The translations under genes and the position numbers were made by a program. A DNA stretch of 64,000 nucleotides from Promethearchaeota archaeon (GTDB lineage Archaea > Asgardarchaeota > Lokiarchaeia > Sigyniarchaeales > SOKP01), in assembly GCA_030603385.1 (NCBI GenBank), contig JAUVXW010000009.1:62958-126957 (forward strand), given 5' to 3'. Shown here piece after piece: positions 9,197 to 41,297 of this stretch. The notes under the pieces are model-generated. The model was not told the origin of the DNA and ran no database searches. It worked only from the letters and a program-made list of their open reading frames with translations. Each line of letters begins with the position of its first letter. Positions within the stretch are counted from its first letter, which is position 1.

Positions 9197-9349
9197 TCTA
9201 CTTCATTAAGGATTAATTTTGAAAATGAAAATTTTATATAATAGCGAATATACTCAAACAATTTTATATAAAAATTTATGAAAGTTTCCAAAATTATAAA
9301 TATAATAATTAATTTATAATAATTATAAATTTAAAAAAAATTTAAATTT

Positions 9350-10822
9350 TTGGAGGTATTAAGAAACATGTTAGAATTGAGTGAAGAAAAAGTATACGAT
9401 ATTCGAAAGGTTTATGGAAAAGACAAGAAATCAGGAGAAGACTTTTATAACAAATGGCTTAGAGAATATCCAATCCTAAAAAACGAAGATGTACAAAAGT
9501 GGATTAGAAATAAGATAAATCAATTTACTGATGAGGGAAAAAATCCGAAAGGTTTCAAAATAACGACATATTTAAGACCATTATATCAATATTGCCTGTT
9601 TAATAAAGTAGAAAACCCTACAGATTTATTAGATGAAGTAAACATGACTGTAGAAATAAACGGAAAAAAGGGAGATATAGAAAACGGAAATCTAAGATTA
9701 AAGACATATATTAATTTTCTTTTGGATGTAATAAAAGACAAAAATAACAAACAGAAATTACAGAAATTAAAAGATCTAAAATTTAGGGTAATGAAAAATA
9801 CTGGAAAAGTAAAGATACCAAACGAAGTTTCAGTTAGAAATATGATACAAGGCAGAATTAGGAGTTTTTACTCATCCCGTGGATTTCAATTATCCGTAAA
9901 AATAAAAACAAAGGATTCTGGTAAAAATGTAAACGAAATAGATGTAGACAAAGAAATGATAAAACGAATTAAAAACAACATCAATAATATTACATATAAT
10001 TTGGTCTGTAAATTTCAAACTCAGACAGGATTAAGAATAAATGATATATTGAAAGAGTTAACAAATGGTAAATATGTAATTGAAAATTATAAAGATGGAG
10101 ATTTCGAACGTTACTTTATTAGAAATTTTGAAACACAGAAAGAAAAAGTGGTAATTAATTTTATGCCATTTACAAACGAATTAGCAGATATGTTGAGTCT
10201 TACATATCCTGAAATAAAAGATGATTTAACCAAATTGGATTTATCAAATTTATTTATAACAAGAAACAATAAACGTATAAGGGAAGTTGATTACTTAGAC
10301 AGATTAAAATTGGCAACTAAAAGGGCTGGAATAAAAGGAAATATGAAGACACATTTGCTTAGAAAATATTATATAACACAGATAGAAGATGTTAAGGAAA
10401 TAAGTAGTAAATTTAGAGACCATTTAGAAGGACATACCACAGATTATTCAGATAAAACATATAATAAGAATATTAGACGTATCAAATGGTTTTTTGATAA
10501 TTGGAAATTAATAGAAGAGAGTATTTGTGTAAACGGTGTTATATATGGTAAAACAGATAAGAAAGTTATAAAATTGGATAAAAGATACAAAGATATAATG
10601 GAACAATTAGTTGAAACCAATAAAACAAATACAGAATTACAAAATAAATTAAATAGTATGGAACATAAGGTAGAAGGATTTGACCAGTTATTTAGAATAT
10701 TACTCGAAAAGCAAAGATATTCAGAGGAAATCGATGAAAAACATGGAATTGAATCTACAAAGGTATACAAAGTTATGAAAAAGGTATTTGAAGAACATTT
10801 TGAAAAGTTAAGTAAAAAATAA
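9350..10822 (+). CDS. Tyrosine recombinase/integrase with C-terminal coiled coil
   Basis: Catalytic set R (QTGLRIND), K (ETQKE), HxxR (THLLRKYY), H (LEGH), Y (DKTYN). Confidence 0.92.
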   Translation: MEVLRNMLELSEEKVYDIRKVYGKDKKSGEDFYNKWLREYPILKNEDVQKWIRNKINQFTDEGKNPKGFKITTYLRPLYQYCLFNKVENPTDLLDEVNMTVEINGKKGDIENGNLRLKTYINFLLDVIKDKNNKQKLQKLKDLKFRVMKNTGKVKIPNEVSVRNMIQGRIRSFYSSRGFQLSVKIKTKDSGKNVNEIDVDKEMIKRIKNNINNITYNLVCKFQTQTGLRINDILKELTNGKYVIENYKDGDFERYFIRNFETQKEKVVINFMPFTNELADMLSLTYPEIKDDLTKLDLSNLFITRNNKRIREVDYLDRLKLATKRAGIKGNMKTHLLRKYYITQIEDVKEISSKFRDHLEGHTTDYSDKTYNKNIRRIKWFFDNWKLIEESICVNGVIYGKTDKKVIKLDKRYKDIMEQLVETNKTNTELQNKLNSMEHKVEGFDQLFRILLEKQRYSEEIDEKHGIESTKVYKVMKKVFEEHFEKLSKK

Positions 10823-12388: not shown

Positions 12389-13099
12389 TTATTGTTCTTT
12401 TCCGCACATTGGACAGAACATTTTTGTTTCGTCTAATATTTCAGTTCCACATTCTGGACAATATAACTTTTGTATTTTATAAATTTCTTTTTGCTTTTTT
12501 ATGGTTTCTCTTATATTCCTTTTTTTATGTCTCTTTTTGAATATATTTTTCCCTGTAATAATAATAACTACAGACATATATCCAAGACATCCTAAAAATA
12601 TATAAATAGGTATAAAAGTAAGTAGAACCAAAAAATCCAACGAAGTCTCTTTATATGTAGAATAATATTCAAAAGATATATAGGAAGAAATTACATCAAA
12701 ATTTATAACCAAAATAGTCCACGTATCGTAAAAAGGGAAATCCATATTATACCATGCTTCTCCTCCAGATTCATCTGTAAAATGCCAATAATTAGTATAT
12801 GAATTATAATCATAAACATCAAAGTCAAGCCCGTGTTGCCCAGAAGACAATAAAACAACATAAAAATCGAATGGTGGATCACAATAAAATTTAAAAAGAA
12901 AATGATCTCCATCTTGTCCTTTAACATAAAAAAGCCATCCTGTATCTCTCTGCATTTCACGTTCAGTACGTCCTTCCCATGTTTCTACTTTTGGATAAAA
13001 AACAACTATTATCGCTGAAATAACTACTCCTATTAATAAAAAGGAAACCAAAAACAAAACAATTATATATTTCTTCATTTTTTTTATCACCTCCTTCAT
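12389..13099 (-). CDS. Membrane protein with extracellular beta-rich domain and C-terminal zinc ribbon; likely start ~13078
   Basis: Two TM segments, DTWTILVINFD motif, CPECG...CPMCG. Confidence 0.75.
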   Translation of the reverse strand: MKEVIKKMKKYIIVLFLVSFLLIGVVISAIIVVFYPKVETWEGRTEREMQRDTGWLFYVKGQDGDHFLFKFYCDPPFDFYVVLLSSGQHGLDFDVYDYNSYTNYWHFTDESGGEAWYNMDFPFYDTWTILVINFDVISSYISFEYYSTYKETSLDFLVLLTFIPIYIFLGCLGYMSVVIIITGKNIFKKRHKKRNIRETIKKQKEIYKIQKLYCPECGTEILDETKMFCPMCGKEQ

Positions 13100-13122
13100 T
13101 TGTTTAATTTGAAATAAATTTA
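13087..13122 (-). repeat. Gene-junction repeat copy A
   Basis: TAAATTTATTTCAAATTAAACAAATGAAGGAGGTGA; the first TAA is the stop of ORF 13120-13596. Confidence 0.8.
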
Positions 13123-13596
13123 TCCAATTATCATTTCTCCTGTATATCTAAAATTAATTCCTTCAACAATCAATTCCTCCATATCTGGATATTCACTCTT
13201 CATTCCCATAATTACCTGTTTCCATGTTATTAATTTACATGTCATACATTCTGTCTCACCATATATATCAACAAAATCTTCAAGATAATGCTTATTTTTG
13301 GGTTGAATCCATTTTTTTAATCCTGTTAGTATCCAGATATGATCTTCTTTAAACAGACATTCATCATATATTGGCTGAATTCTATGTCTATCTGCAATTA
13401 TTTGCTTTATATTGTGCTTCTTATTATGAGTTTTACACCATACATACCTCTCATCTTTCGTCCTTAGCTTGTTAATTTCAATCATCTTCTCAGAATGTTG
13501 TTCGTCTATTTCGTTAAATTTTTTTCTTAAAATTCTGCTCTGTTCCCTTAGTTTCATTATTTCTTCATATAATTCCATTATTTCTTCTTCACTCAT
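13120..13596 (-). CDS. Hypothetical protein (N-terminal coiled coil, scattered Cys/His)
   Basis: 158-aa ORF with GGAGGTG SD. Confidence 0.7.
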   Translation of the reverse strand: MSEEEIMELYEEIMKLREQSRILRKKFNEIDEQHSEKMIEINKLRTKDERYVWCKTHNKKHNIKQIIADRHRIQPIYDECLFKEDHIWILTGLKKWIQPKNKHYLEDFVDIYGETECMTCKLITWKQVIMGMKSEYPDMEELIVEGINFRYTGEMIIG

Positions 13597-13610
13597 TATT
13601 TAACACCTCC

Positions 13611-13925
13611 TTATTTTTTTAATGAATAATTTAACATATTAAATACAGCCATATTTCTCCTCCTTATATTCATCAACCCGCCACTCTCATCTGTTTGGAA
13701 TCTAAATTTTCTACCATCTTTTAGATTAATTAATGGTCTTTTAGCTGTTTTCGGAAATTTCTCAGAAATAGTAACAGAATTAATTTCTTCAAATTTAATC
13801 TCAGTTATATTTCCTCTATGAAACAAAAATACGATCTTATCGTCCTCAATCTTTAAAGTTCCCCAGTGTCGTCTTTTTGGTAATCGTGTTTCTCCTTCCA
13901 ACATTAAAAATCCCTGATAACTCAT
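13611..13925 (-). CDS. PH-like/GRAM-like domain protein
   Basis: WGTLKIEDDKIVF...EIKFEEINSV...LINLKDGRKFRF strand pattern. Confidence 0.6.
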   Translation of the reverse strand: MSYQGFLMLEGETRLPKRRHWGTLKIEDDKIVFLFHRGNITEIKFEEINSVTISEKFPKTAKRPLINLKDGRKFRFQTDESGGLMNIRRRNMAVFNMLNYSLKK

Positions 13926-13929
13926 CTTT

Positions 13930-13950
13930 TCACCTCCTCATTTGTTATTT
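13930..13950 (-). repeat. Gene-junction repeat copy B (partial)
   Basis: AAATAACAAATGAGGAGGTGA; contains the stop of ORF 13945-14151. Confidence 0.75.
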
Positions 13951-14151
13951 TTTTAATGATTTTAAATCTTTTATCTTTTCATAAATATCTTTGTCAAATT
14001 GTTTTAAAAATTCTGAACTACATTTTTCTTTTAAATATTTCACTATTTCCCTGATAATCGTTAATGAATCACGATTCATTTGTATACTTGATTTAACGTT
14101 CTCCTGTATAGAATCAATTCGTTTTAATATATCATCTAATTTTTCACTCAT
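13945..14151 (-). CDS. Small hypothetical protein
   Basis: 68 aa, SD present, MSEK start. Confidence 0.65.
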   Translation of the reverse strand: MSEKLDDILKRIDSIQENVKSSIQMNRDSLTIIREIVKYLKEKCSSEFLKQFDKDIYEKIKDLKSLKK

Positions 14152-14158
14152 CTTATTA

Positions 14159-14191
14159 TCACCTCATCATTTGTTATTTGGAATAAATTTA
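14159..14191 (-). repeat. Gene-junction repeat copy C
   Basis: TAAATTTATTCCAAATAACAAATGATGAGGTGA. Confidence 0.85.
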
Positions 14192-14193
14192 TA

Positions 14194-14397
14194 TCATGAT
14201 AATGATTTTTGATCTAATAAAATTCGAGTTAAATGTAACCCAAGACCTGGATATGCCCCTCCCCATATTCCAGCATATTCTCCAATTATAGCAATAGTAA
14301 GGAAGGTTATGACAATAATAATAAATATAATTGTATATTCCAATAACTTAATTCTTTTTTCCAAATATTTTATTCTATTATCAAAATCTTCTGTCAT
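14194..14397 (-). CDS. Small single-TM protein
   Basis: One hydrophobic helix; ATGA overlap with upstream ORF. Confidence 0.65.
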   Translation of the reverse strand: MTEDFDNRIKYLEKRIKLLEYTIIFIIIVITFLTIAIIGEYAGIWGGAYPGLGLHLTRILLDQKSLS

Positions 14398-14753
14398 GTT
14401 AGAACCTCCTGTTTTAATTTTTCCATATCTTTTATTGCTTCATCTCTATATTCTATTACAATATCTTTTAATTCTGGCAATTCAAATAATTCTAATTTTA
14501 AAAATGTCACACGATTTTCATCATATATTTCTAAAAACATAACCAATTCATTTTTTGGATGATAAGTCCATTCAAATCCACCGTATTTAATATTCCTTTT
14601 TTTTAATGCTTCGTTGGTTTTATTTATTAAATTAGAATATTTATCCAATAGTTTACCTTTTAAAAAAATAGGTTCACTCCATTTTTCACCTGTATCTTTT
14701 TCTAATCGTTTTTGTCTTAGTTTTATCATTCTCTTATGATATTTTTCACTCAT
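14394..14753 (-). CDS. Hypothetical protein
   Basis: 119 aa, MSEK start after junction repeat. Confidence 0.7.
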   Translation of the reverse strand: MSEKYHKRMIKLRQKRLEKDTGEKWSEPIFLKGKLLDKYSNLINKTNEALKKRNIKYGGFEWTYHPKNELVMFLEIYDENRVTFLKLELFELPELKDIVIEYRDEAIKDMEKLKQEVLT

Positions 14754-14761
14754 CTCTTTTC

Positions 14762-14793
14762 TACCCCTTCATTTGTGATTTGGAATAAATTTA
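14762..14793 (-). repeat. Gene-junction repeat copy D
   Basis: TAAATTTATTCCAAATCACAAATGAAGGGGTA. Confidence 0.85.
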
Positions 14794-14795
14794 TT

Positions 14796-15527
14796 TTATA
14801 TTAAAGCCTCAATATCATTTTCTTTATTTCCAATATCAATCCAATAATCTATGGCTTGTTTAGCCTTTGGATTTGCTTCAAATCCAATGTATTTTCTATT
14901 TGTTATGATACAATTATAAGCAGTAGTTCCATTTCCCATAAAAGGGTCTAATACGATATCTCCTTCATTGCTTGAATTTTCAATTAAATCACGAACTAAT
15001 CGATTTGGTAGTTTAGTACCAATTTTCGGTACATTAGCAGAAATTCTAGGTCTACTCATAGTAAAAACATCTGGCATATTGAGTCTTAGTCTATTAAACT
15101 TGTATTTGTTTATGTCCCTAACCAAGAAATAGATATGATAATGAGCTGATGAGTATTTCTTTTTTGCTTTTGCTTGTGTAGTGCCACATACCCAAATACA
15201 ATGGTTTAACCTAATCAAATCGAGTCTGTCTAATATTCTTTCTACATTATTTAAATGATTCCAACCTAACACTATATACATTGAGCCAGAATGTTTTAAC
15301 ACTCTTTCTGCTTCTAACATCCATTTAAGTGTAAAATTATAATAATGTTCTGGTTTAACTTCTACATATCCTTCCATTAAATTTTCAGAGTTTCTGACAT
15401 AATTATATGCACCCTTATCAAACCAAATGCCAAACGGAGGATCTGCTATAATTAAATCAATTGAATTGTTACGTATTCTTTTCATGCCTGATATACAGTT
15501 TTCATAATAGATATGATTTAATTCCAT
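14796..15527 (-). CDS. N4/N6 DNA methyltransferase (beta class), solitary
   Basis: IIADPPF precedes VLDPFMGNGTT...IGFE. Confidence 0.92.
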   Translation of the reverse strand: MELNHIYYENCISGMKRIRNNSIDLIIADPPFGIWFDKGAYNYVRNSENLMEGYVEVKPEHYYNFTLKWMLEAERVLKHSGSMYIVLGWNHLNNVERILDRLDLIRLNHCIWVCGTTQAKAKKKYSSAHYHIYFLVRDINKYKFNRLRLNMPDVFTMSRPRISANVPKIGTKLPNRLVRDLIENSSNEGDIVLDPFMGNGTTAYNCIITNRKYIGFEANPKAKQAIDYWIDIGNKENDIEALI

Positions 15528-15531
15528 TTAA

Positions 15532-15561
15532 TCACCTGTTCTGTTTTTTGAAATAAATTTA
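15532..15561 (-). repeat. Gene-junction repeat copy E
   Basis: TAAATTTATTTCAAAAAACAGAACAGGTGA; the first TAA is the stop of ORF 15559-15834. Confidence 0.7.
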
Positions 15562-15834
15562 TTTAATTATTCCTAAACGTATCTTGTTGGCTTTCCGTAA
15601 ATACAATATTGGATAAATCATAAAAACAACAATAGTTAAAACTATACCTATACACAAGCTAATCATTGCTTCGTATTGAAGGACATAATTACCCGTTGTA
15701 TCTACATAATCAAGAGTTTGTATTGCATGTATCATAATATAAAGAATCACACAGCCAACTATTATTGAAATTGTGACCAATGTTCTTAATTTATCATATT
15801 TCATCATTTCCTCTTCACTCATCCTTATTACCAC
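15559..15834 (-). CDS. Small 2-TM membrane protein
   Basis: Two hydrophobic helices. Confidence 0.7.
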   Translation of the reverse strand: MVIRMSEEEMMKYDKLRTLVTISIIVGCVILYIMIHAIQTLDYVDTTGNYVLQYEAMISLCIGIVLTIVVFMIYPILYLRKANKIRLGIIK

Positions 15835-15842
15835 CTCCTATA

Positions 15843-16295
15843 TTATTTAATTTCGATTTTTAAATGTTTACATTCCTTCAACTTCCTTTTTAAGAAATTC
15901 AAGAATTTTTTATATGATTTTAAACCATATCTTTTTTTAATCCAGTTGGTCATTGCTATGAAAATCATATCTACATCTTCCAATGTCTCTTTTAAAATTT
16001 GATTATCTAACTCCTTTTCTGTCACTTCTGTAAATCCTAATTCCTCCAATTTTTCTATTGACGGATCATCTAAAAATTTCTGCTTTAATTTTTCTTGTTT
16101 ATTTTCTTGTTTATTTTCTTGTTCATGTTCCCACATTTTAAAAGCATGAGTTATCTCGTTATTTTTATTTAACGCAGTCCTATTTGTTTCATGATAATAT
16201 TGTTCAAATAATATTTCTTGTCTTTTTGTATATCTTTGTCTACTACCTTGAGAATAATACCATTTCTTTATTCTCCTCCAAAATTCATTACTCAT
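15843..16295 (-). CDS. Hypothetical protein with ETGK-like module
   Basis: YYHETNRTALNKNNEITHAFKMW. Confidence 0.7.
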   Translation of the reverse strand: MSNEFWRRIKKWYYSQGSRQRYTKRQEILFEQYYHETNRTALNKNNEITHAFKMWEHEQENKQENKQEKLKQKFLDDPSIEKLEELGFTEVTEKELDNQILKETLEDVDMIFIAMTNWIKKRYGLKSYKKFLNFLKRKLKECKHLKIEIK

Positions 16296-16301
16296 TTTAT
16301 A

Positions 16302-17033
16302 TCACGTCCTGTTTTGTTTAATTTTCTTTTGATATTGTAACCATTGTTTAAATTGTACAGTGATTTTATTACCCCAAATAACATGTTGACCTGTCTCGGC
16401 TTCAAATCTTTTTATTAATTTTGGATATTTATTTTGAAACTCATTTACACTCATTTTTATTCCTTTTTGTTTCTTTAAATTTTGCGGATTTAAAAGAACA
16501 TGAAACATAAAATTCAATTTATTTTTTTCCCCGTCCTTTTCATCTTCTTTATCATATTCATAAGTTTCATAAACTCCATATATCCTTCCGTACAATTTAC
16601 ATAAGGAAATAAATTTATCAAAGTTCTGTCTAATATGAATAATTTTTTCGAGATTATTAGTGGCATAATCAATAATTTGAATGTAATTCTTAAACTCTTT
16701 ATGTAGCTTTAATTTTAATAAAATTTCAATGAACTTTGCTTTATATTTAAAAGTGAATTTATTATATTTGTCACGTTTACTCTCAATACATTCAGCAAAA
16801 TTATACCATAAATTATTATCAAGATATTTTATAAAACCTCCACCAAGTTTTAATGCACCTCTCATCGAAATAAGCACATATTTACCATCCTCTGTATCTG
16901 GTGTTTCTGGTAAAGGTATATTGCTTTTAATGAATTCTTCAGCAGTAAGCTCTATATAATCTTTCTCATTCCCCTTTTCAAACATTTTTCTTACCATTTC
17001 TTTTAATCTCCTTCTTTTTATTAGGAATTCCAT
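16302..17033 (-). CDS. Hypothetical protein with C-terminal ETGK-like module (possible internal start 16454)
   Basis: MSVNEFQNKYPKLIKRFEAETGQHVIWGNKITVQFKQW. Confidence 0.7.
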   Translation of the reverse strand: MEFLIKRRRLKEMVRKMFEKGNEKDYIELTAEEFIKSNIPLPETPDTEDGKYVLISMRGALKLGGGFIKYLDNNLWYNFAECIESKRDKYNKFTFKYKAKFIEILLKLKLHKEFKNYIQIIDYATNNLEKIIHIRQNFDKFISLCKLYGRIYGVYETYEYDKEDEKDGEKNKLNFMFHVLLNPQNLKKQKGIKMSVNEFQNKYPKLIKRFEAETGQHVIWGNKITVQFKQWLQYQKKIKQNRT

Positions 17034-17493
17034 AACGAAATTTATCTGTATGTTTAATATATGTGAGTCTCTTTTCGATGAGTTTTATGATGGATTTTGT
17101 GCTTTCATCATCAACGTGTTCTCTAATAAATTGATAATACTCATCCCAAGTTTCCAATTTGTGATATTTCATAAATCTCGCAATATCTAATAAAGGTAAA
17201 TCTGTACCTCTTCCTTTTTCAAACAAATAAAAAATACAGAAAATATTGTTTTTCCAACCATAATCAACCTCTTCTATGCCTAAATCTTTAAAAACTCTCT
17301 TTATGAACGGCACCAAATTAATAATTTCTTTCTCATATCTCAGAACTTTATGTGCTGGCTTTTTCACAAATTTCGTTAAAAAATCCAAATAACCTGTATA
17401 TGTATAACAACGTACAACTCCACATCTTAAATATCCTTCATCTACTTTTCCTTTTTCTAAGACATTCTTATATTTATTGCTCAATTTTTTCAA
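16978..17493 (-). CDS. Hypothetical protein
   Basis: 171-aa ORF co-oriented in the operon. Confidence 0.65.
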   Translation of the reverse strand: MKKLSNKYKNVLEKGKVDEGYLRCGVVRCYTYTGYLDFLTKFVKKPAHKVLRYEKEIINLVPFIKRVFKDLGIEEVDYGWKNNIFCIFYLFEKGRGTDLPLLDIARFMKYHKLETWDEYYQFIREHVDDESTKSIIKLIEKRLTYIKHTDKFRYGIPNKKKEIKRNGKKNV

Positions 17494-17505
17494 CTCTTTT
17501 TTTTA

Positions 17506-18201
17506 TTACTTCGCATAACCTTTATGCTCTTTATATACATTCCCTCTATAATGTGTTCTCTTACACCACGAGCAGTAATAAGGTTGAGTCATAGGTGGCG
17601 GTGGTCTATTAGTCCTTTCAATATTATCTACCCATTCATTTAAGTTATGGATTTCATCATTACTAAGTAATCCTTTTTCTATTTTTTCATTCAATATACC
17701 TCGAAAAAGATATGTTTGTTTTTGTATTTGTTCGTATGATAATTCTTTACAACCTAAATTTGCTGAAACAAAAATACCCATAGCTTCACTATCAGAGAGT
17801 TCCATTATTTTACAACTAATTTTTTCACGACCTAACTTTTTCGTGGCAGTAAACCTTCGATACCCCTCCACAAGAGAATATTTTTCACTATTATTAATTG
17901 GTCTAATAATAACAGGAGTTATCAAACCTACATCAAGTATAGACATTAATAAAGCTCCATCATTTTCGTCATTAGACCATCTATCTCGAAATGAGATAGA
18001 ATCATCAATTTTAATATTCTTAATGTCAATCTCTTTTATATTCCATTTCATTTGTTTTATCTCTTTTTGCTTATATCTCCATTGTTTAAATTGTCCAGAT
18101 AGCTTACCACCTATAATGGCATTTTTGCCTGTCTCTTTTTTAAACAATAAAGTCGATTTATATATTTTTGGATATTTATTTTTGAATACTTCTGTGTTCA
18201 T
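17506..18201 (-). CDS. ParB/Srx-like domain protein with N-terminal ETGK-like module and C-terminal CxxC-H motif
   Basis: LLMSILDVGLITPVIIR...YSLVEGYRRFTA...SANL. Confidence 0.85.
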   Translation of the reverse strand: MNTEVFKNKYPKIYKSTLLFKKETGKNAIIGGKLSGQFKQWRYKQKEIKQMKWNIKEIDIKNIKIDDSISFRDRWSNDENDGALLMSILDVGLITPVIIRPINNSEKYSLVEGYRRFTATKKLGREKISCKIMELSDSEAMGIFVSANLGCKELSYEQIQKQTYLFRGILNEKIEKGLLSNDEIHNLNEWVDNIERTNRPPPPMTQPYYCSWCKRTHYRGNVYKEHKGYAK

Positions 18202-18362
18202 TATCTAACCTCCTTGTTATTTGAAATAAATTTTTTAATTGATAATTTCTTTAAAAATTCATACTCGTCATAAGGGCTATGTGGTACATAATATAGAGAG
18301 TCATAATTCAGGAGCTTATGAGTTTCAGCATCTACAGGTAGTTTTTTAATTTCCTTACTCAT
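18201..18362 (-). CDS. 53-aa hypothetical protein (not in ORF track)
   Basis: MSKEIKKLPVDAETHKLL...; overlaps both neighbours at start and stop; reads through junction repeat F. Confidence 0.5.
   Translation of the reverse strand: MSKEIKKLPVDAETHKLLNYDSLYYVPHSPYDEYEFLKKLSIKKFISNNKEVR
18208..18234 (-). repeat. Gene-junction repeat copy F
   Basis: AAAATTTATTTCAAATAACAAGGAGGT. Confidence 0.75.
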
Positions 18363-18672: not shown

Positions 18673-20679
18673 TTACTCATCCTCCAATTCAAATTCAATT
18701 TCATCATCTATTTCCTCATCTTCAATTTCCTCTAATTCCTCTTCTTCAAGTTCAATATCTTCAATTTCCTCATCACCCAATTCTTCGAAATCAATTGGTT
18801 CCTCAAGTATTTCAATAAGTTCGTCTTGTAATTCTGTCATAAAATTATCAAAATTAGTTTCAATAAAACTTTCTCTTCTCTCTATAAATTCCTCTTTAAG
18901 TTCATTATATTCTGGAATTTGCTTAATAATTCTTTTACATATAACCTTTTGCTTTCTTACCAGTTTTCTAAGTCCCTCAGTTTGTTCATTTGATAATATA
19001 CGCAATTGTCTATTCTGCTTTTCAATAATACTCCAAGGATCTTTAACAATATTATCACCCTTATATCCCTTATTTTTCCTTAGAATTTTTTTGAAAATAT
19101 CATATTTACCCTTTGTATATATTAGATTTTGGAGCTCCTCATTAGTCTCACGCATTTTATTAACTCTATCTCTTATAAGCTCATACCAATCTGTCGTAAA
19201 TCGCACGTTCCTCTCATCTAAATACTCATTAAATTCTCTATATGCTTCTTCTCCAATTTCTCCCTGTTTTTCAGTTATTTTATCTGATAATTCCCTCAAT
19301 TTATTATTGACAATATTTATTCTTCTCTCTATTTCCTTGTCTATATTATCTATAAATTCTGGTCTTGAAACATTGAGAGTATTTAATGTTGGCTCATAAT
19401 AATCTGGTTTTTCATATCTACTCAAGTTCCATGGTCTTTCTGGATCTTCTAAAATTCCAATTAAATAATCAATAAAATCTCTGGCTTTATTTTGCTCATA
19501 ATCTTCTTCTTCTCTTTTTGTTAACAAACTGTTTATCTCTGCCCGCCTCTCTAAACAGGAATTAATCCAATTATTATATTTTTCTCTTTCATCTTCAGTT
19601 ATATCAAACTCTAAAACCTTATTTCTTACCTTTTCTTTCTGTTTTTCTTTCTGTGTTTCTGTAACATCATAATCTTCGGCTATTTCATCAAACTCCACCC
19701 CAATATGCTCTAAAAAGTCAGGATTTATCCCTACACTTTCACAGGGAAATCTTTCCCTAATGTTGAAATAAATCATAAGTCCGTCTATATCTAAATCATG
19801 TTGAACAAATACATAAAAATTTCTAACTTTTGAAAATGGTATTAAATATTTAATTACTGCACTTACAGGATAACCACCTAAAGAAATACCATAAAATCCC
19901 TCGTTATATCCCCTATTAATTAGTTCTCGCATTGTAAAATCAATAAGTATCGTTTTTTCACAGATAATTAAGAAAAAAGGTACATTTTCAAATTCCTCCA
20001 ATCTCTCCAATTCAATCAGATTTTTCTTTGTTAAAATAATTTCTACCATATTCATATCAAATATATTCGCAGTACCCTTAATATCAACTCCGAGATAATC
20101 TGGAACATAACCCCAATACTCAAAACCTAAAAATTCAAAGAGTTTATTATAATATTTATCTACTGCTTGACCAATAGCTTTTTGTTGCTCTTCTTTAGTG
20201 CCTTTTAAATTTAATTTACCACCAAAACTTTTCCTGACCTTATAGAATACCTCCCGTTTATCTGTTTTTTGGAGGTTCAAATCTAATTGCTTAAAAATCC
20301 ATCTCTTATTTAATATCTTAACTACTTCTTTTTTTTCTTTAATTCTTGGAAATTCTTTGACTAAATACACTATATCTTTATATTTTGTTTTTGGTATTTG
20401 TTTCCTATAATAATCATCCAATTTTTCAACAACATGTTCTCTAACATTTGTCCTCCATATAGGTATATGAATAGCACGACAAATATGATGATATTTTGGT
20501 TTTCTCATTAACCAAACTTCAAAATCCCCCAGATGTACTCCATTATCTTTAAATGCCTGTTTACCTGTTTCGGCATAATATTCCTTTATCGATTCGTCTC
20601 CATACTTTTCTATAAATTCATTATAAAGCATTCGAACAACAGGCGAGTGAAATTTTTTTATTAAATCTTCTCGATTCAA
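18673..20679 (-). CDS. Spo11/topoisomerase VI A-like protein with N-terminal ETGK-like module, coiled coil and acidic tail
   Basis: REVFY (catalytic-Tyr-like motif); Toprim motifs IICEK, GGYP, HDLDIDG. Confidence 0.78.
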   Translation of the reverse strand: MNREDLIKKFHSPVVRMLYNEFIEKYGDESIKEYYAETGKQAFKDNGVHLGDFEVWLMRKPKYHHICRAIHIPIWRTNVREHVVEKLDDYYRKQIPKTKYKDIVYLVKEFPRIKEKKEVVKILNKRWIFKQLDLNLQKTDKREVFYKVRKSFGGKLNLKGTKEEQQKAIGQAVDKYYNKLFEFLGFEYWGYVPDYLGVDIKGTANIFDMNMVEIILTKKNLIELERLEEFENVPFFLIICEKTILIDFTMRELINRGYNEGFYGISLGGYPVSAVIKYLIPFSKVRNFYVFVQHDLDIDGLMIYFNIRERFPCESVGINPDFLEHIGVEFDEIAEDYDVTETQKEKQKEKVRNKVLEFDITEDEREKYNNWINSCLERRAEINSLLTKREEEDYEQNKARDFIDYLIGILEDPERPWNLSRYEKPDYYEPTLNTLNVSRPEFIDNIDKEIERRINIVNNKLRELSDKITEKQGEIGEEAYREFNEYLDERNVRFTTDWYELIRDRVNKMRETNEELQNLIYTKGKYDIFKKILRKNKGYKGDNIVKDPWSIIEKQNRQLRILSNEQTEGLRKLVRKQKVICKRIIKQIPEYNELKEEFIERRESFIETNFDNFMTELQDELIEILEEPIDFEELGDEEIEDIELEEEELEEIEDEEIDDEIEFELEDE

Positions 20680-21173: not shown

Positions 21174-21322
21174 TATTCTCTGACCTCCTCGTTTTTTACT
21201 TTAATATCAAGATAATTTCTAACAAGTTCAGCAACCAGCTTTTTTATGGATTTGTTTTCTTTTGAGGCTCTTGTTTTCAATAGAATGTGAAGTTCGTCAT
21301 CTATAATAATTTGTTTAACCAT
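21173..21322 (-). CDS. Ribbon-helix-helix (Arc/CopG-like) regulator, 49 aa (not in ORF track)
   Basis: MVKQIIIDDELHILLKTRASKENKSIKKLVAELVRNYL; first gene of the leftward operon. Confidence 0.75.
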   Translation of the reverse strand: MVKQIIIDDELHILLKTRASKENKSIKKLVAELVRNYLDIKVKNEEVRE

Positions 21323-22626
21323 AATATAATCTCTCTTTCATTTTTTTCGATTTATCGATTAATCTATTAATTAAAATAAATATTGGATTATTTATAAATC
21401 TATTTTTCACATACAAACGATATATCCTGTTTGATAATAACATTAGCAATAATTAGATTCATGAGTTGAATAATTAGACAGATGTGATATTTTGAGTTTC
21501 TGGGAATTTTAGATATTTGACTTGTAGTATGGTTTAAACTCAATTATAATACATGAAATTGTGTTTTGAATATTCCAAACATGTTTTAAATCTTTCTACT
21601 CTATAAATATGGCATAATTGGAATATCGAAAATTTTTCGATCTTATATTTTTATATTTTATTAGTTTGATGACATCTATATATCCAATTAATCTACAACT
21701 CCAATTTGATATATAGCATTTAATAGATTAAAAAAAATCCAATGTACACCAATTCTATTGGTGTATTAATATATACTATAATTGAAAATTAGAGTGTATG
21801 TATATGTACCTTGGAATATTTAAGTTTAAAAATTTTTTTGAAAAAAATTTAATTTTTTTACAAAAAATAGATAAATATTGAAAAATTTTTAATGTTCTCT
21901 TAAATTGTTTAAAAGATATTATAGAGATTGAATGATTTTCCGTTATATATTAGATATAATATAAAATCTTTAAAATAAATAAATAATTATATCATTTTTT
22001 TCAAATAATAGGAATTTTTTACTTTATAATAATTATTATTTTATTGGATTGTTTAATATATAAAGTTAAAGTATAATGATTATGGTTTCTGGCTATTTGT
22101 TTGATGTACTTATTATTTTCAATACTAATTTCTAAAACTTGGGTAATTTTAGTATTAAAAAAATCCAAAAATAACACGAAATTAGTTAATTATAATTAAA
22201 ATCATAATTATCTTTGATTTAAATTAGATTAAATCCAATAAATTTAATAGAAATAGAATGAAATTAAGTTATTTTTAAAGATAATTGATTTTGAATAGTG
22301 GAAATGATAGAATCATTAGAAAATTTATTTTGATTATAACAGGAGATATAATGTATAAATTTTTTATTAGATGATTTATTCTGAATACGATTAGAAAGTT
22401 TCTACTCAATATAGATATGTTTTATATTTAAATCAATCGTGATTTTTTTTAAAATTCTGCTTCTAAATACCAAATTCAGAGTTTAATTTTTTCTCCATAA
22501 TGAGAAATGAAGAAATATTCAAATATTCTATATATAGGAAAAAAAAAAAAATAAAAAAAAATAATAAAAAAAAATAAAATATATATAATATAATATTGAG
22601 TTTTTTCTAATTATCTCATTATGAAT
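21323..22626. other. 1.3-kb AT-rich non-coding block, candidate replication origin
   Basis: No ORF of 60 aa or more; several palindromes; A-tract at 22539-22579; directly downstream of the helicase gene. Confidence 0.4.
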
Positions 22627-24405
22627 TTAAAAAGCTTCAAATTGAAAATCATCGTCTGTTTCAAAAAGCTCATTAGCATCTATTTTCTCAGAGTCCTCTA
22701 ATTTAATATCATCAAAAATTTCTACTTGTTTTTCTGTTTCAAATTCACTTTTTCCATATTCCTCGTTTTCCTCTCTTGCATCTTCAAATGCCCTTCTTAC
22801 TCTTATTGATTGTATGTTATCATCACTTTTAAAATCTTCGTTATAACTTATTCCTCTATATTTATAACCACTACTTTCTGAATGTGTTTTCTTGCTAACT
22901 GAAATAACTCTTACTTTTGGATATATCGATTTTAAGGAACGCGTACATTTTGATTTAGAAATTTCTGGGAGTCCTCGTTTCTTCCTCCAATTACATATCA
23001 TCTCATAAAATAATTGACAATCAATTGAACCAGTTTCATTATCTGAACAATATCTTTCAGTATATTGTGCTACTGGATTCCTCTCAAGTGCCCAAGTCAC
23101 CCTAACATACTCTTCAGTTTGTCTAAATCCCTTTCTCTCCTCTAATCTTAATATGGCTATCAAACATTTATTTAATAATCCACTTAATTCTTCTTGTGTA
23201 GAAATTTTATCTCCAAAATCTCGAATTATTTCTTTTATTCCAAATATATTATAACATGGTATTAATATCCATCTTCTATGAAATCCTTCTGATACATATT
23301 TATCGTCTGGTAATATATTACAACCAAATAAATTTTTTGTAATATTCCACCATGTAACATCATCTTGAACTCCTTTCATTTCTCCCGATAATATCTTATT
23401 AGTAACAATTTCATTAAATGTATCTGTATATTTTATAGGTTTATCTAAAAGATCATCTCCAATATTTACCATTTTATCTCTTAAGTTATGTATTTGAAAA
23501 GTTCTACCAAGTTCATGTAATTTTTTTTTACAAATATGTTCCTTTCCAATAAAATTTGTTATAATCTCTATAAGTGTTGTTTTACCTGAACTGGGAGGTC
23601 CAAACAGCATAAAAGCCTTTTGAAATTTAATTGTTGGTATTAAAAAATAACCAATCATTTCATATACATCGTTTTTATACCTTTTTCCAACAATTAAACT
23701 AATTTCCTTATCAATTAAAGGACATTTAGCTTTTGGATTGAATTCAACAGGTAATTGAGTAAATGTTCTAATTGGTTTTTCTATCTTTTTATGAGATATG
23801 AATTGCCATTTTTTACCCCTTCTTATTAATAAACCATTTAACACATTTATAATATTTTCATTGTAGTGAAATGTATCTAAATGTACATATGTTTCATCTC
23901 GAATTAGATCATAAACATTATTACGTGTTGATATGGTATGTCTGAAACCTTCAATTCCTTTGGCAATTTTATTAATCTCCTGTTTTATCTTTGTTTTTGG
24001 TATTGTTCCTCTTTGATAATATCCCTTATTATATAAACAGAATTCATCAGTTTCTCGAAGTGTTAATAATTTATCTCCATGTTTATCTACAATTTGTTTT
24101 TCTATATTTCTCTCAATTTGTTCAGATGTTTCTGTTTGTTTTTCTGCTTCAATTTGAACCTTAATTGTATGTTCTAAATTAACAAAATAATTTAATAATT
24201 TTTGAGCTGTATTGTTAGTTAAAAAATTTAATTCCGAAAGATATTGATTAAGTTCATTTTTAGGTTTTTTAATTTCAATATGTTGTTTTTTATTCCAATT
24301 AAAGTAACATATAAAATTCTTATCATGAAATATATTAACTCCCTTTTTATCAGGGTCAATTACTAACACTAAATTATCATTAACTTTTAATCTTCTTCTT
24401 ACCAT
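22627..24405 (-). CDS. Phage/plasmid D5/P4-family SF3 helicase
   Basis: INVLNG (D5_N-like), Walker A GPPSSGKTT, Walker B NIGDD, motif C FGCN, GFHRRW. Confidence 0.9.
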   Translation of the reverse strand: MVRRRLKVNDNLVLVIDPDKKGVNIFHDKNFICYFNWNKKQHIEIKKPKNELNQYLSELNFLTNNTAQKLLNYFVNLEHTIKVQIEAEKQTETSEQIERNIEKQIVDKHGDKLLTLRETDEFCLYNKGYYQRGTIPKTKIKQEINKIAKGIEGFRHTISTRNNVYDLIRDETYVHLDTFHYNENIINVLNGLLIRRGKKWQFISHKKIEKPIRTFTQLPVEFNPKAKCPLIDKEISLIVGKRYKNDVYEMIGYFLIPTIKFQKAFMLFGPPSSGKTTLIEIITNFIGKEHICKKKLHELGRTFQIHNLRDKMVNIGDDLLDKPIKYTDTFNEIVTNKILSGEMKGVQDDVTWWNITKNLFGCNILPDDKYVSEGFHRRWILIPCYNIFGIKEIIRDFGDKISTQEELSGLLNKCLIAILRLEERKGFRQTEEYVRVTWALERNPVAQYTERYCSDNETGSIDCQLFYEMICNWRKKRGLPEISKSKCTRSLKSIYPKVRVISVSKKTHSESSGYKYRGISYNEDFKSDDNIQSIRVRRAFEDAREENEEYGKSEFETEKQVEIFDDIKLEDSEKIDANELFETDDDFQFEAF

Positions 24406-25565: not shown

Positions 25566-26083
25566 AATTTAATCATCCAATTTTATCATAACTTATAATT
25601 AATTATTATAATTTATTATTATTTATAAATATTATTGAGTAAATCGATGTAATACATAGATTCAACATAAAACATACATAAGCACATGATTTGGATAAAT
25701 CTAACAAAAGTTAAAAAATAGTTAAAAAATTGTAAATGTCGTTAAAACATATATGAGATGTTATTTTTATACATTAGATGAAAAATGAACAAAGACAAAA
25801 ATATTCGAAAAATTGAAAAGACCCCTGTGGAAGGCAGGGGCAATAAATAGAGGTTTAAGATTTTGACAGAAAAATTAAACTCTAATTATTATAAAATTTA
25901 TAACATTTATAAATTTATTTGAATGTAATCATTCTAAACCTATCATTGGGTTTTAGTTTTATCCAATTTGTAAAATTGACTTAAATATTCACTTATTTGT
26001 TATTAGAAGTTATATAATAGAAAAATTATAATTGGATTAAAAATTTATTTTAATTAATTGGATAACCAAATAGAGTAATTAGA

Positions 26084-28198: not shown

Positions 28199-28377
28199 TA
28201 ATATTTATAAAATTTCTAATTATTATAAATTATTTGTGTTTTAACACGATTTTAACAATCAAACCATATAAAAATATTATGATGAAAAATTAATAATAAA
28301 AACATAATATTTAAATAATAGAAAAATAATATTAAATTAATTAAAAAAATAATAAAAACATAATAAAGGTTAAAAAA

Positions 28378-28623
28378 ATGGTCTATAAATTAATAAGTGA
28401 ATGGAAAAGTAAGGATGGAAAATCTCACGAGATTACAGTTTATAAGTATAATGTAAGCCAAGACAATGTAATAAGATATAACTATGAATCGAAAAATGAT
28501 TATGTAGATATAAAGGTTCAATGGTTTGGTAATCCTACTATGACTGAATATGTTTATGTTCAATATAATAAACAAAAATTAACTGAAAATGAAAGAGCCT
28601 TAGTTCAAATCGGGAGGGATTAA
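28378..28623 (+). CDS. Hypothetical protein
   Basis: First ORF of a rightward operon. Confidence 0.6.
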   Translation: MVYKLISEWKSKDGKSHEITVYKYNVSQDNVIRYNYESKNDYVDIKVQWFGNPTMTEYVYVQYNKQKLTENERALVQIGRD

Positions 28624-31217: not shown

Positions 31218-31260
31218 ATTTTAAATTTTTTTTCTCTATTCATGAAATAAATAAAATCTA

Positions 31261-31329
31261 TAATCCAATTATTATTTCTAATGATTCTAATGAACACTAC
31301 ATATATTTAAAACACCAATATATTTAAAT
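31261..31329 (+). promoter_or_regulatory. Duplicated promoter-like module, copy 1
   Basis: 18-bp identical core TCTAATGAACACTACATA shared with 34325-34342, followed by a TTTAAA TATA-like box. Confidence 0.6.
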
Positions 31330-31372
31330 TTTAGAAATTTATATTAATATTAATAATCAAAATTTAATTTGA

Positions 31373-34070: not shown

Positions 34071-34292
34071 ATGAATAGAGATCAATTTAATATTTTAGTT
34101 AATGCAGGAATTATAAATGCTAAGGATGAGAAAAAACCAAAAGGAAAGCCTAAACTTACAATAGGAGATATAATGATAAAACTCGAGTTCTTTAATAGAC
34201 ATGGTATTATCAAAGCTTTAAACATCCAAGATAGTGGTATTAATGCTTGTAAAGAATATACTCATATTTCTTTTAAAATACCAAAAGAATGA
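34071..34292 (+). CDS. Hypothetical protein
   Basis: 73 aa. Confidence 0.55.
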   Translation: MNRDQFNILVNAGIINAKDEKKPKGKPKLTIGDIMIKLEFFNRHGIIKALNIQDSGINACKEYTHISFKIPKE

Positions 34293-34299
34293 TAATCCC

Positions 34300-34366
34300 T
34301 AATCCATTTTATCATTTAATTAAGTCTAATGAACACTACATACATCTAAAATCCAAATATTTAAAT
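34300..34366 (+). promoter_or_regulatory. Duplicated promoter-like module, copy 2
   Basis: Matches 31261-31329; upstream of an RHH gene. Confidence 0.6.
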
Positions 34367-38438: not shown

Positions 38439-38624
38439 ATAAGGAGGTTAACGATAACGATTGAAGCCTGTTTAAAGTGCAGAATCATTCAAAAGAATAT
38501 TCAAGAAAACGAAATCAAGGAAGAGATTAAAGCTTTTTTAGAAGCACCAGAGAACTTTTATGTTAAATATAATCCGCAAACAGGATTCTACAAATTTGAG
38601 TTGATTATTTAAGCAATTCTAAAA

Positions 38625-38658
38625 TAAATTTATTTTAAATTACAGAATAAGGAGGTGA
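38625..38658 (+). repeat. Gene-junction repeat copy G
   Basis: TAAATTTATTTTAAATTACAGAATAAGGAGGTGA. Confidence 0.65.
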
Positions 38659-39581
38659 AAAATATGGATGAAGCAATTCTAATAATTGTTATTATTTCTA
38701 TTGTAGTGACTGTTACTATAAATTTAATAATATACATGTTTTTAAGAAATAAATTTCAGGCAATAGATATAATTAGAGATTCTGCTATTAAACTTGATAC
38801 AACGGTTTCAACAATTACTACCTTAAGTGGTAATCTTTTTAAGCAAATAGCTGGTTTGACAAAACTTCAATCAGAATTAAAATTAAATTTTCAAAGTTTC
38901 TATGATAAACTTATAATGAAACCATCTGTAAAAGGAAGGGTAGGAGAAGGAATTATCAAATTTATTTTGAGTAGTTTTCCCGAAAAATTATGGAAGGAAC
39001 AATATAAAATTTCTGGCTCTGGTGTAGTAGATTTCGCAATTTTTATGCCACCAGATGATAGAATATTACCAATGGATGCCAAATTTTCATTACCAGAAGA
39101 AGGAATAATAGATAAGGAGTTAGAAGAAGGAGAAATTGTGTTTTTAAATAAGGAACAGAGAAAAAAAGCCAATTCACAAGTAATCAAGAGAATGCGAGAG
39201 GTTACCAAATATATTAATCCATTAGAGGGAACAATGAATTTTGCTTTAATGTTTATCCCAGATTCAGTTTATTTAGCTTTAACAAATGAAACATTGAGTG
39301 AATTACAATCGAATAGAGTTATTCCCGTAAATACAAGTGGTTTAATAAGCACACTATTCTTAATAGAACGTCAATATGTTTCGATAAGAATAAGTAAAGC
39401 TGTGGAAAGATTAGAGGATATAAAATCCACAATGGAATATCAATTTATTAAAATCTCTAATACATTGAAAAAGGCAGAAACACAGGGAGAAAATTCAAAT
39501 AAGAATATTACAAATGCTATTCAGCAGATTAAAAAAGCAGAGAGTAAAATTTTGGTAAGTTTTGGTTTGTTAGAGGAATAA
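38655..39581 (+). CDS. rmuC: RmuC-family PD-(D/E)XK protein
   Basis: N-terminal TM, KGRVGE, EQY, VDFAI, PMDAKFS, KYINPLEGTMNFALMFIP. Confidence 0.85.
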   Translation: MKNMDEAILIIVIISIVVTVTINLIIYMFLRNKFQAIDIIRDSAIKLDTTVSTITTLSGNLFKQIAGLTKLQSELKLNFQSFYDKLIMKPSVKGRVGEGIIKFILSSFPEKLWKEQYKISGSGVVDFAIFMPPDDRILPMDAKFSLPEEGIIDKELEEGEIVFLNKEQRKKANSQVIKRMREVTKYINPLEGTMNFALMFIPDSVYLALTNETLSELQSNRVIPVNTSGLISTLFLIERQYVSIRISKAVERLEDIKSTMEYQFIKISNTLKKAETQGENSNKNITNAIQQIKKAESKILVSFGLLEE

Positions 39582-41235: not shown

Positions 41236-41265
41236 ATGTGGAGTTAAATAACTAAATTTATTTTT

Positions 41266-41291
41266 TTTATTTTAAAATAACAAATAGGAGG
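41266..41291 (+). repeat. Gene-junction repeat copy H (partial)
   Basis: TTTATTTTAAAATAACAAATAGGAGG. Confidence 0.6.
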
Positions 41292-41297
41292 CGTAAA

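What the first reader, a model, noticed from the sequence alone, without database searches (positions are those of the whole stretch)
13087..18234. Conserved ~35-bp gene-junction repeat gives a cassette-like array next to the integrase
Consensus TAAATTTATTYCAAATAACAAATGAAGGAGGTGA lies just upstream of unrelated genes at 13087-13122, 13930-13950, 14159-14191, 14762-14793, 15532-15561 and 18208-18234 (minus strand), and at 38625-38658 and 41266-41291 (plus strand). Conservation extends ~25 nt beyond the Shine-Dalgarno. In three copies a TAA of the repeat is the upstream gene's stop, and many genes in the array start MS(E). Inference: a portable junction allowing genes to be inserted or exchanged with their own translation signal. 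It is integron-like in logic but has no attC hairpin, and the array converges on the recombinase. Alternatively it is a shared RNA-level regulatory site, like phage start-associated sequences.
Basis: partly seen in the sequence, partly recalled or inferred. Interest (0 to 1): 0.8.

Follow-up and report, generated by a model that had tools for sequence, protein, structure and literature searches.

The report
Conserved gene-junction module in Lokiarchaeal mobile elements
A roughly 50-base sequence (an AT-rich promoter-like core, a strong ribosome-binding site and a fixed gene start) recurs before unrelated accessory genes in an integrated mobile element of an Asgard (Loki) archaeon and in two related elements, so it is probably a reusable expression-and-exchange module.

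Summary
The repeat is real. There are six strong copies (five in the minus-strand array at 13-18 kb, one before rmuC at 38.6 kb) and two partial ones. All point the same way as the downstream gene. No other copy exists in the 3.9-Mb genome.

The host is a Lokiarchaeial (Asgard) MAG. The window holds a ~34-kb integrated element with a primase-helicase, a 668-aa core gene, an accessory-gene array and a tyrosine recombinase.

The same junction occurs in two related elements from other metagenomes (L188/L189/L225 and L190; core protein 67% and 48% identical). There too it lies in the variable array before non-homologous genes. Its core is 78% identical between elements, while flanks are near random and the integrases are almost unrelated.

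It has no attC-like hairpin and no significant RNA fold, so it is not an integron.

Best reading (about 45%): an expression cassette. It combines a BRE/TATA-like core placed for a start 0-11 nt before the ATG, a Shine-Dalgarno site for read-through RNA, and enough homology for cassette exchange. The main rival (about 30%) is an mRNA-level start-associated signal.

No transcript data could be obtained. The closest known analogues are PeSL cassettes, SAS/ESAS repeats and the HGTV-1 motif.

The parts
13079..13130 (-). Junction copy J13108, before a 229-aa membrane/zinc-ribbon gene (ATG 13077). The stop TAA of the upstream gene (13120-13122) lies inside it.
   Evidence: 35.3 bits.
13922..13950 (-). 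Half copy (3' part only: ATAACAAATGA, SD, ATGAGT) before a 104-aa gene. It matches the same part of J14177 at 18 of 19 positions, so the 68-aa gene is flanked by direct repeats.
   Evidence: 13.1 bits.
14148..14199 (-). Junction copy J14177, before a 68-aa gene (13945-14151).
   Evidence: 46.1 bits.
14750..14801 (-). Junction copy J14779, before the 119-aa and 67-aa gene pair. It is 81% identical to J14177 over 64 nt, including the first four codons.
   Evidence: D3; 38.4 bits.
15523..15570 (-). Junction copy J15547, before the N6/N4 DNA methyltransferase gene (14796-15527). The upstream stop TAA (15559-15561) lies inside it.
   Evidence: 30.7 bits.
18198..18242 (-). Junction copy J18220, before the ParB-N-domain gene (17506-18201). 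It lies inside, and is translated as, the C-terminus of the 53-aa ORF 18201-18362.
   Evidence: 27.3 bits.
38617..38665 (+). Junction copy before rmuC (38664-39581). It contains an 18-bp perfect AT palindrome. The 88% nucleotide homology to a second rmuC on contig C24 starts here.
   Evidence: 36.8 bits.
41255..41297 (+). Diverged copy with a T8 insertion, before a 79-aa gene.
   Evidence: 12.3 bits, weak.
18673..20679 (-). 668-aa conserved core gene of the element family, directly upstream of the array. It was the anchor that found the related elements. An earlier scan note calls it TopoVI-A/Spo11-like; this was not tested here.
9368..10822 (+). Weak tyrosine-recombinase-like gene that converges on the array.
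   Evidence: PF00589, 25.7 bits, below the 27.1 cut-off.
22627..24405 (-). D5/P4-type primase-helicase, the replication hallmark of the element.

Best explanation
The repeat is a conserved junction module (J) of about 50 nt, belonging to a small family of integrated mobile elements of Lokiarchaeia.

Its layout is: a stop-rich AT tract with a BRE/TATA-like core (A)AATTTATTCYAAAT, a short A-rich linker, a strong Shine-Dalgarno site (GGAGGTGA), a conserved spacer (often GATAAATAAGAG) and an ATG-AGT-GAA start.

It stands before the element-specific accessory genes, or units of 1-5 genes, in the variable array between the conserved 668-aa gene and the integrase.

Proposed mechanism:
1. Host TBP/TFB bind the core and start transcription about 30 nt downstream of its first T. 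That is 0-11 nt before the ATG, so each accessory unit gets its own leaderless or very short-leader mRNA, as a moron promoter would provide.
2. On read-through polycistronic RNA the SD drives internal initiation.
3. As a by-product, the ~50 nt of shared sequence lets homologous recombination insert, delete or swap the units between copies and between related elements.

Shown here: existence, orientation, restriction to the element, conservation across three elements, and association with variable genes.

Inferred: promoter activity, dual-mode translation and recombination.
For: 1. Specificity. There are six strong copies, all co-oriented with the downstream gene, and none elsewhere in 3.9 Mb.

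2. Conservation.
- The same module is found in L188/L189/L225 and in L190, before different genes.
- The core is 78% identical between elements and 89% within an element, against 36-45% for the flanks.
- The core proteins are only 48-67% identical and the integrases are nearly unrelated.
- The invariant columns are TTTA-T and AAA, more constant than the SD itself.

3. Promoter likeness.
- In 6 of 7 window copies the six bases before TTTATT fit the BRE pattern RNWAAW (own reading).
- The first T of TTTATT lies 29-41 nt before the ATG. That overlaps the host's TTTAAA peak at -32 to -28, which marks leaderless promoters.
- The predicted start often falls on a T-A step in GATAA.

4. DNA-level hints.
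- In L188 the copy before the 166-aa gene follows a T4+T7 run placed directly after the upstream stop. That gene would then need its own promoter.
- Three of 11 copies lie inside upstream ORFs yet remain conserved, which suits a DNA-level signal.

5. Translation.
- Strong SDs are about 10-fold enriched in the element (15 of 170 genome-wide hits).
- SDs are reported to be rare in Lokiarchaea (PMC12993045). Dense operons need them for internal cistrons (established knowledge from Sulfolobus).

6. Cassette behaviour.
- Only 1 of 11 J-preceded genes is shared between elements, against 11-12 of 23 other array genes.
- There is one X-J-Y1 versus X-J-Y2 case.
- The homology of the MTase and rmuC genes to their relatives ends at gene or J boundaries.
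Against: - There are no transcript data.
- The SD sits between the putative TATA and the predicted start, in the region an archaeal promoter must melt. It would therefore be missing from J-initiated RNA.
- SD-led, highly expressed host genes (histones, thermosomes) have their TATA at -48 to -63, not -29 to -41.
- The BRE-like bases are not kept in the relatives.
- TTTATTYC is not the host's commonest TATA word, and no sharp host promoter consensus could be derived.
- The conserved spacer and first codons point to a translation-level role.
- No recombination event at J was observed. Two near-identical element copies have the same gene order.
Confidence: 0.45

Rival explanations
1. J acts only in the mRNA. 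It would be an extended translation-initiation region, a 'start-associated sequence', within polycistronic transcripts. The AU-rich core would be bound by a host or element factor (a protein, or the ribosome platform) that enhances, represses or times initiation at the adjacent SD. This resembles SAS/ESAS of cluster K mycobacteriophages, or the AU-rich operators of T4 RegA.
For: - J is always intercistronic and co-oriented. It is contiguous with a strong SD, a conserved spacer and conserved first codons.
- Strong SD conservation implies that transcripts cross the whole repeat.
- The TATA-like core is too close to the ATG for the SD to be in a J-initiated RNA.
- The region is no more structured than shuffled sequence (z +0.3 to +1.4 in five of six copies), as expected for an open ribosome landing site.
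- The phenomenology matches SAS closely: one orientation, non-structural half of the genome, absent from the host, upstream stop codon inside the repeat (PMC3203893).
- J-like intercistronic copies occur in other Loki genomes, for example between a NYN RNase gene and a 499-aa gene.
Against: - Keeping a leader unstructured does not need 14 invariant bases.
- The core is more conserved than the SD.
- Three of 11 copies are translated as part of the upstream ORF.
- No candidate RNA-binding factor was identified.
- No conserved SD-sequestering hairpin exists (2-3 of 8 copies only).
Confidence: 0.3
2. The core is a DNA site for an element-encoded dimeric DNA-binding protein. It would be an operator for one of the many wHTH/C2H2/'ETGK'-module proteins, or a centromere for the ParB-like protein, and would not itself be a promoter.
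For: - The consensus core is palindromic (AATAAA|TTTATT). The copy at 38620-38637 is a perfect 18-bp palindrome.
- Copies cluster around the ParB-like gene.
- Similarity is higher within an element than between elements (0.89 against 0.78), as for the ESAS half-sites that differ between phage subclusters.
Against: - Strict co-orientation with genes and a fixed position next to the SD are not expected for a centromere.
- Palindromy is weak evidence in AT-only sequence, and it is lost in several copies and in the relatives.
- L188 and L190 carry J, but BLASTP found no homologue of the window's ParB-like protein in the parts of them that are held.
Confidence: 0.12
3. The array is an integron-like system. 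J would be a site-specific recombination site used by the neighbouring tyrosine recombinase to capture gene cassettes.
For: The array lies next to a recombinase in both the window and L188. J flanks single genes or small groups of genes.
Against: - There is no attC-like hairpin.
- The recombinase converges on the array instead of diverging from it.
- The window's recombinase is a sub-threshold Pfam match and lies far below the XerA/integron-integrase cut-off (30.8 against 220 bits).
- The recombinases of the two J-bearing elements are almost unrelated, while J is 78% conserved.
Confidence: 0.03
4. J has no function of its own. It would be a relic of repeated junction duplication or gene conversion during gene insertions, maintained only by recency.
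For: - The repeat unit overlaps both neighbouring ORFs.
- Adjacent copies are the most alike (14177 and 14779 at 81%; 14177 and the half copy 18 of 19).
Against: J is conserved across elements whose core proteins are only 48-67% identical and whose other intergenic DNA does not align. The invariant core contrasts with near-random flanks.
Confidence: 0.07

Closest known systems
PeSL (promoter-early stem-loop) mobile regulatory cassettes of T4-type phages (Arbiol et al. 2010, PMC2839356; Comeau et al. 2014, PMC4122927)
   Same: Both are short conserved regulatory repeats, in one orientation, before small and mostly unknown genes in the variable ('hyperplastic') part of a mobile genome. In both, repeat-bounded genes differ between relatives. 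The proposed role is the same: expression signal plus substrate for homologous recombination.
   Different: A PeSL is a sigma-70 promoter plus a terminator stem-loop. J has an archaeal BRE/TATA-like core, no stem-loop, and includes the SD, spacer and start codon. PeSL-mediated indels and mini-circles were shown experimentally; nothing of that kind is shown here.
Start-associated sequences (SAS) and extended SAS of cluster K mycobacteriophages (Pope et al. 2011, PMC3203893)
   Same: Both are conserved asymmetric sequences that contain the SD a few nt before the start codons of a subset of non-structural genes. Both occur in one orientation and are absent from the host genome. The upstream stop codon sometimes lies inside the repeat. 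Both are conserved across related genomes before different gene families. An extra conserved block lies just upstream. In both cases the function is unknown.
   Different: SAS is a 13-bp GC-rich motif, and ESAS is a pair of 17-bp inverted repeats. J is AT-rich, TATA-like and lacks clear inverted repeats. The host is an Asgard archaeon, where SD use is reported to be rare.
Conserved TATA-like motif with inverted repeat before most ORFs of the left arm of haloarchaeal virus HGTV-1 (Sencilo et al. 2013, as summarised in PMC3950731)
   Same: An archaeal virus or mobile element with a repeated motif containing a TATA-like region in front of many small ORFs. That motif is interpreted as a PeSL-like regulatory and shuffling element.
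   Different: The sequence, host phylum and copy number differ. The HGTV-1 motif has an inverted repeat, and fusion to an SD and start codon is not reported for it. The primary paper was not available to me, so the comparison rests on the review.

Membership tests
Integron (IntI, attI, attC cassettes) | attC: an imperfect palindrome that folds into a hairpin at each cassette boundary | tested here: not met
   Folds of six copies give z-scores of +0.26 to +1.38 (one at -1.24). There is no shared hairpin.
Integron (IntI, attI, attC cassettes) | IntI-type tyrosine recombinase diverging from the array | tested here: not met
   PF00589 scores 25.7 bits, below the 27.1 cut-off. The NCBIfam XerA/integron-integrase model scores 30.8 against a cut-off of 220. 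The gene converges on the array. Recombinases of J-bearing relatives are nearly unrelated.
PeSL-type mobile regulatory cassette | Contains a functional promoter | tested here: inconclusive
   A BRE/TATA-like core lies 29-41 nt before the ATG. No transcription-start data exist, and the SD lies inside the would-be promoter.
PeSL-type mobile regulatory cassette | Contains a stem-loop terminator | tested here: not met
   No significant fold. A T-run appears only in some copies (L188 15.8 kb; window 41.26 kb).
PeSL-type mobile regulatory cassette | Flanks variable genes; differences between relatives are bounded by the repeat | tested here: inconclusive
   Only 1 of 11 J-preceded genes is shared, against 11-12 of 23 others (p 0.02-0.05). 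There is one X-J-Y1/Y2 case. The relatives are too distant for exact breakpoints, and two near-identical copies show no rearrangement.
PeSL-type mobile regulatory cassette | Excised mini-circles joined at the repeat | not testable with these tools
SAS/ESAS-type start-associated repeat | Conserved asymmetric motif that includes the SD, a few nt before the start codons of a subset of genes, in one orientation | tested here: met
SAS/ESAS-type start-associated repeat | Absent from the host genome and conserved among related elements before different gene families | tested here: met
SAS/ESAS-type start-associated repeat | Sequence membership (GGGATAGGAGCCC; 17-bp inverted repeats upstream) | tested here: not met
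   J is AT-rich and has only a weak AT palindrome. The resemblance is analogy, not homology.
Archaeal core promoter (BRE-TATA-Inr) | Purine-rich BRE directly 5' of an 8-bp TATA box | tested here: inconclusive
   RNWAAW followed by TTTATTYC is present in 6 of 7 window copies, but the BRE part is not kept in L188 and L190. A host consensus could not be derived.
Archaeal core promoter (BRE-TATA-Inr) | Transcription start about 24-26 nt downstream of the TATA centre | not testable with these tools
   No RNA data.

The most novel reading that the evidence does not exclude
J is a dual-mode mobile expression cassette of Asgard archaeal mobile elements. Host TBP/TFB would start a leaderless or near-leaderless mRNA just after the SD. 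The same SD would serve internal initiation on read-through RNA. Homologous recombination between J copies would move single accessory genes within and between Lokiarchaeal elements. That would be an archaeal counterpart of PeSL cassettes, built around both archaeal modes of translation initiation.
Probability: 0.22. Interest if true: 0.65.

Novelty: new variant of a known kind. Interest (0 to 1): 0.5.

Why it matters
Almost nothing is known about promoters, translation signals or gene exchange in Asgard archaea and their mobile elements. The Asgard mobile-element papers I searched do not mention promoter or junction motifs.

A short module kept across elements, and always placed before accessory genes, is a natural and compact candidate expression signal for Lokiarchaeia. 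It gives a concrete handle for three things:
- understanding how these elements acquire defence-type cargo such as the methyltransferase, the ParB-like protein and RmuC;
- building expression cassettes for future Asgard genetics.

If it turns out to be only an optimised ribosome-binding region, it is a modest annotation note.

Tried and rejected
- **Exact-pattern scans.** I scanned GTDB genomes, IMG/VR and JGI metagenomes for the 20-mer and for a core+SD+ATGAGY pattern. Only single chance hits came back. The real relatives differ by 1-2 bases in the core and were found only through the 668-aa protein.
- **Other protein anchors.** The primase, ParB and MTase gave contigs that were too short or that lacked J.
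- **Host promoter consensus.** tRNA upstream regions (aragorn found only 13-18 tRNAs), positional k-mers and a home-made EM all failed to give a sharp motif.
- **SD-sequestering hairpin or translational-coupling hairpin.** It is strong in only 2-3 of 8 copies. Rejected as a general feature.
- **Known RNA family.** Rfam found none.
- **Antisense sRNA from the 29.7-kb non-coding block.** Complementarity is only 13 nt. Rejected.
- **att sites of the element.** No clear direct repeat was found.
- **Virus hallmark genes.** None was found with Pfam or PHROGs, so the type of element is left open.
- **Covariance-model hits in other genomes.** Many are a conserved coding stretch, that is, false positives.


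Full report
**Observation.**
- The core AAATTTATTYCAAA occurs exactly five times, all on the minus strand in the 5-kb array. With one mismatch there are 11 matches against 2.1 expected.
- The repeat finder recovers the family independently. One pair (14139-14202 and 14741-14804) is 81% identical over 64 nt, including the first four codons.
- In the whole 3.9-Mb assembly there are 12 exact cores. The seven outside the array have no SD or start codon after them.
- An nhmmer profile and a covariance model find six strong copies and nothing else above noise.
- The sites at 13922-13950 (3' half only) and 41255-41297 are partial.
- The bias for ATG-AGT starts is real: 9 of 17 in the array against 4.8% in host ORFs, p = 3e-8.

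**Context.**
- The genome encodes four TBP genes, no sigma-70 and no McrA. Its PurF is 98% identical to a Promethearchaeia MAG. The host is therefore a Lokiarchaeial (Asgard) archaeon, and bacterial promoter logic does not apply.
- Window ~9.3-43.5 kb is an integrated element. It holds a weak tyrosine-recombinase gene (9368-10822), a D5/P4 primase-helicase (22627-24405), a 668-aa core gene (18673-20679), a ParB-N protein, a DNA methyltransferase, RmuC and many unknown proteins. No capsid or terminase was recognised.
- Host genes flank it: Vhu/Mvh hydrogenase on one side; a sulfur transporter, selD-like gene and hypF on the other.
- Strong SDs (GGAGGT/GAGGTGA correctly spaced before an ORF) number 170 in the genome, and 15 of them lie in this 34.5-kb element. 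A review states that SDs are rare in Lokiarchaea (PMC12993045).
- Upstream of host SDs the sequence profile is flat. The 25-nt block is therefore not a general feature of SD-led genes.

**Relatives.** Exact-pattern scans and the primase, ParB and MTase baits did not find the repeat elsewhere. MTase genes 78% identical to the window's (L157, L158) have unrelated flanks without the repeat. Homology ends at the start and stop codons.

The 668-aa protein gave the breakthrough.
- L188/L189/L225 (67% identity) has the same architecture: large gene, array of small genes, converging integrase, host genes.
- L190 (48% identity to the window protein; 58% to L188's) carries a primase, the large gene and an array.
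- Both contain the junction in slightly variant form. Examples are AATTTATTCCAAATAACAAAAGAGGGGGTGATAAATAAGAGATGAGT before a 166-aa gene in L188, and three copies in L190.
- An 11-copy alignment (A2) has TTTA-T and AAA invariant. The consensus is AATAAATTTATTCCAAATAACAAA..AGGAGGTGA.
- Core identity is 0.89 within elements and 0.78 between them, against 0.36-0.45 in the 5' flank.
- More distant relatives (L191 at 44%, L222, L071, L072, L157) have no copy.
- Model R1 against 135 genomes of the taxonomic family finds only the six true copies in the window's genome. Other genomes give scattered single hits. Many are a conserved coding stretch. A few are true J-like intercistronic junctions, for example between a NYN RNase gene and a 499-aa gene in two genomes.

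**Association with variable genes.**
- The large gene and the small gene after it are shared and have no J.
- Of 11 J-preceded genes in the three elements, one has a BLASTP homologue in another element. Of the 23 other array genes, 11-12 do (Fisher p 0.02-0.05).
- Window 14194-14397 and L190 8703-8981 are 50% identical. Each is followed by J and then by unrelated genes.
- The 68-aa gene 13945-14151 is flanked by direct repeats of the 3' half of J (18 of 19 identical).
- The element's rmuC is 88% identical in DNA to a second copy on contig C24. The homology starts at the junction and ends 24 nt after the stop. This rmuC type occurs in only 2 of 54 genomes of the genus.
- The recombinases of the window and L188 share only a 59-aa stretch (E 0.008). 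J is therefore not tied to a particular recombinase.
- Two near-identical copies of the L188 element from different samples have identical gene order.

**Mechanism.**
- RNA structure is excluded as a shared feature.
- The core reads as a BRE (RNWAAW in 6 of 7 window copies) plus a TATA-like TTTATTYC.
- Its first T lies 29-41 nt before the ATG. Standard archaeal geometry (established knowledge) places the start about 30 nt after the first T of the TATA box. That is 0-11 nt before the ATG, often on the T-A step of GATAA.
- This overlaps the host's enrichment of TTTAAA at -32 to -28, the signature of leaderless promoters.
- In L188 one copy follows a T4+T7 run directly after the upstream stop, so the next gene needs its own promoter.
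- Three copies are translated as part of the upstream ORF and are still conserved, which suits a DNA-level signal.

Against this reading:
- The SD then lies upstream of the predicted start, in the region that must melt.
- Host SD-led genes (histones, thermosomes) carry their TATA at -48 to -63.
- The spacer and first codons are conserved as well, which points to translation.

I therefore favour a dual-purpose expression cassette (0.45) over a purely mRNA-level start-associated signal (0.30). A regulator or ParB site (0.12), a neutral relic (0.07) and an integron-like site (0.03) follow. Recombination at J is compatible with the data but not demonstrated.

**Comparison with known systems.** The phenomenology matches three known cases:
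- SAS/ESAS of cluster K mycobacteriophages (PMC3203893);
- PeSL cassettes of T4-type phages (PMC2839356);
- the TATA-plus-inverted-repeat motif of haloarchaeal virus HGTV-1 (PMC3950731).

J shares no sequence with any of them. It lacks the PeSL stem-loop and the ESAS inverted repeats, so it is an analogue and not a member. The Asgard mobile-element and virus papers I could search do not mention such motifs.

**Verdict.** This is a new variant of a known kind, of moderate interest.

Noticed in passing
L188:14690-14740 and genome contig C24:22745-22790: A second junction type, CCAATTTAAAATAAAATTACWAATAAAAA..GAGGT, is nearly identical before a NosD/beta-helix gene in L188 and before the chromosomal rmuC copy on C24 of the window's genome. 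Junction sequences other than J are therefore also shared between unrelated genes and genomes.
   Followed up: partly
window 9298-9342, 25579-25613, 28200-28235: A shared AT-rich motif (TAATTTATAATAATTA-like) lies upstream of the recombinase gene, of the gene starting at 25565 (-) and of the wHTH gene starting at 28198 (-). In the last case the TATA-like part starts at -31, as for a leaderless promoter. It may be a common promoter or operator of the element's control genes (I5/I10).
   Followed up: no
window 31245-31337 and 34284-34376: A 93-nt direct repeat (71% identity) with TATA-like words lies upstream of the SpaA-like gene cluster and of the 670-aa coiled-coil gene. It is probably a duplicated promoter region of the plus-strand module (D5).
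   Followed up: no
window 21174-22626: A stretch of about 1.4 kb between the primase gene and the next gene has no ORF of 60 aa or more on either strand. It could be an origin or a non-coding RNA region.
   Followed up: no
window 38614-39605 versus contig C24:22747-23724: The element's rmuC has an 88% identical DNA copy elsewhere in the genome. This rmuC type is present in only 2 of 54 genomes of the genus, so both copies look like mobile cargo.
   Followed up: partly
window 47198-47250: A weak J-like stretch (16 bits) forms the junction between a small ORF (46979-47221) and the sulfur-transporter gene. That gene probably starts at GTG 47244 and not at ATG 47323.
   Followed up: partly
genome contigs C13:~28390-28455 and C46:~59800-59870: Both thermosome genes carry the same upstream motif, TTTTATGACTTAGAGATCT(W)TATATATA. 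It is probably a heat-shock regulator site fused to the TATA box.
   Followed up: no
window 16302-16454 and 17506-18201: The N-terminal ~50 residues of the ParB-like protein are 50% identical to a ~50-codon ORF at 16302-16454. This agrees with an earlier scan note on a shuffled 'ETGK' module.
   Followed up: partly
genome G037 (same taxonomic family), many contig ends: About 22 identical copies of AAATTTATTCCAATTATCAA, mostly at contig ends, indicate an unrelated high-copy repeat or IS end in that genome.
   Followed up: no
L197:947-3041 and L198 (genomes G061, G089): A NYN-domain RNase gene (189 aa) is followed by a J-like junction and a gene of more than 499 aa with a TTG start, in two genomes of the genus. 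This may be a defence or toxin-type pair.
   Followed up: partly
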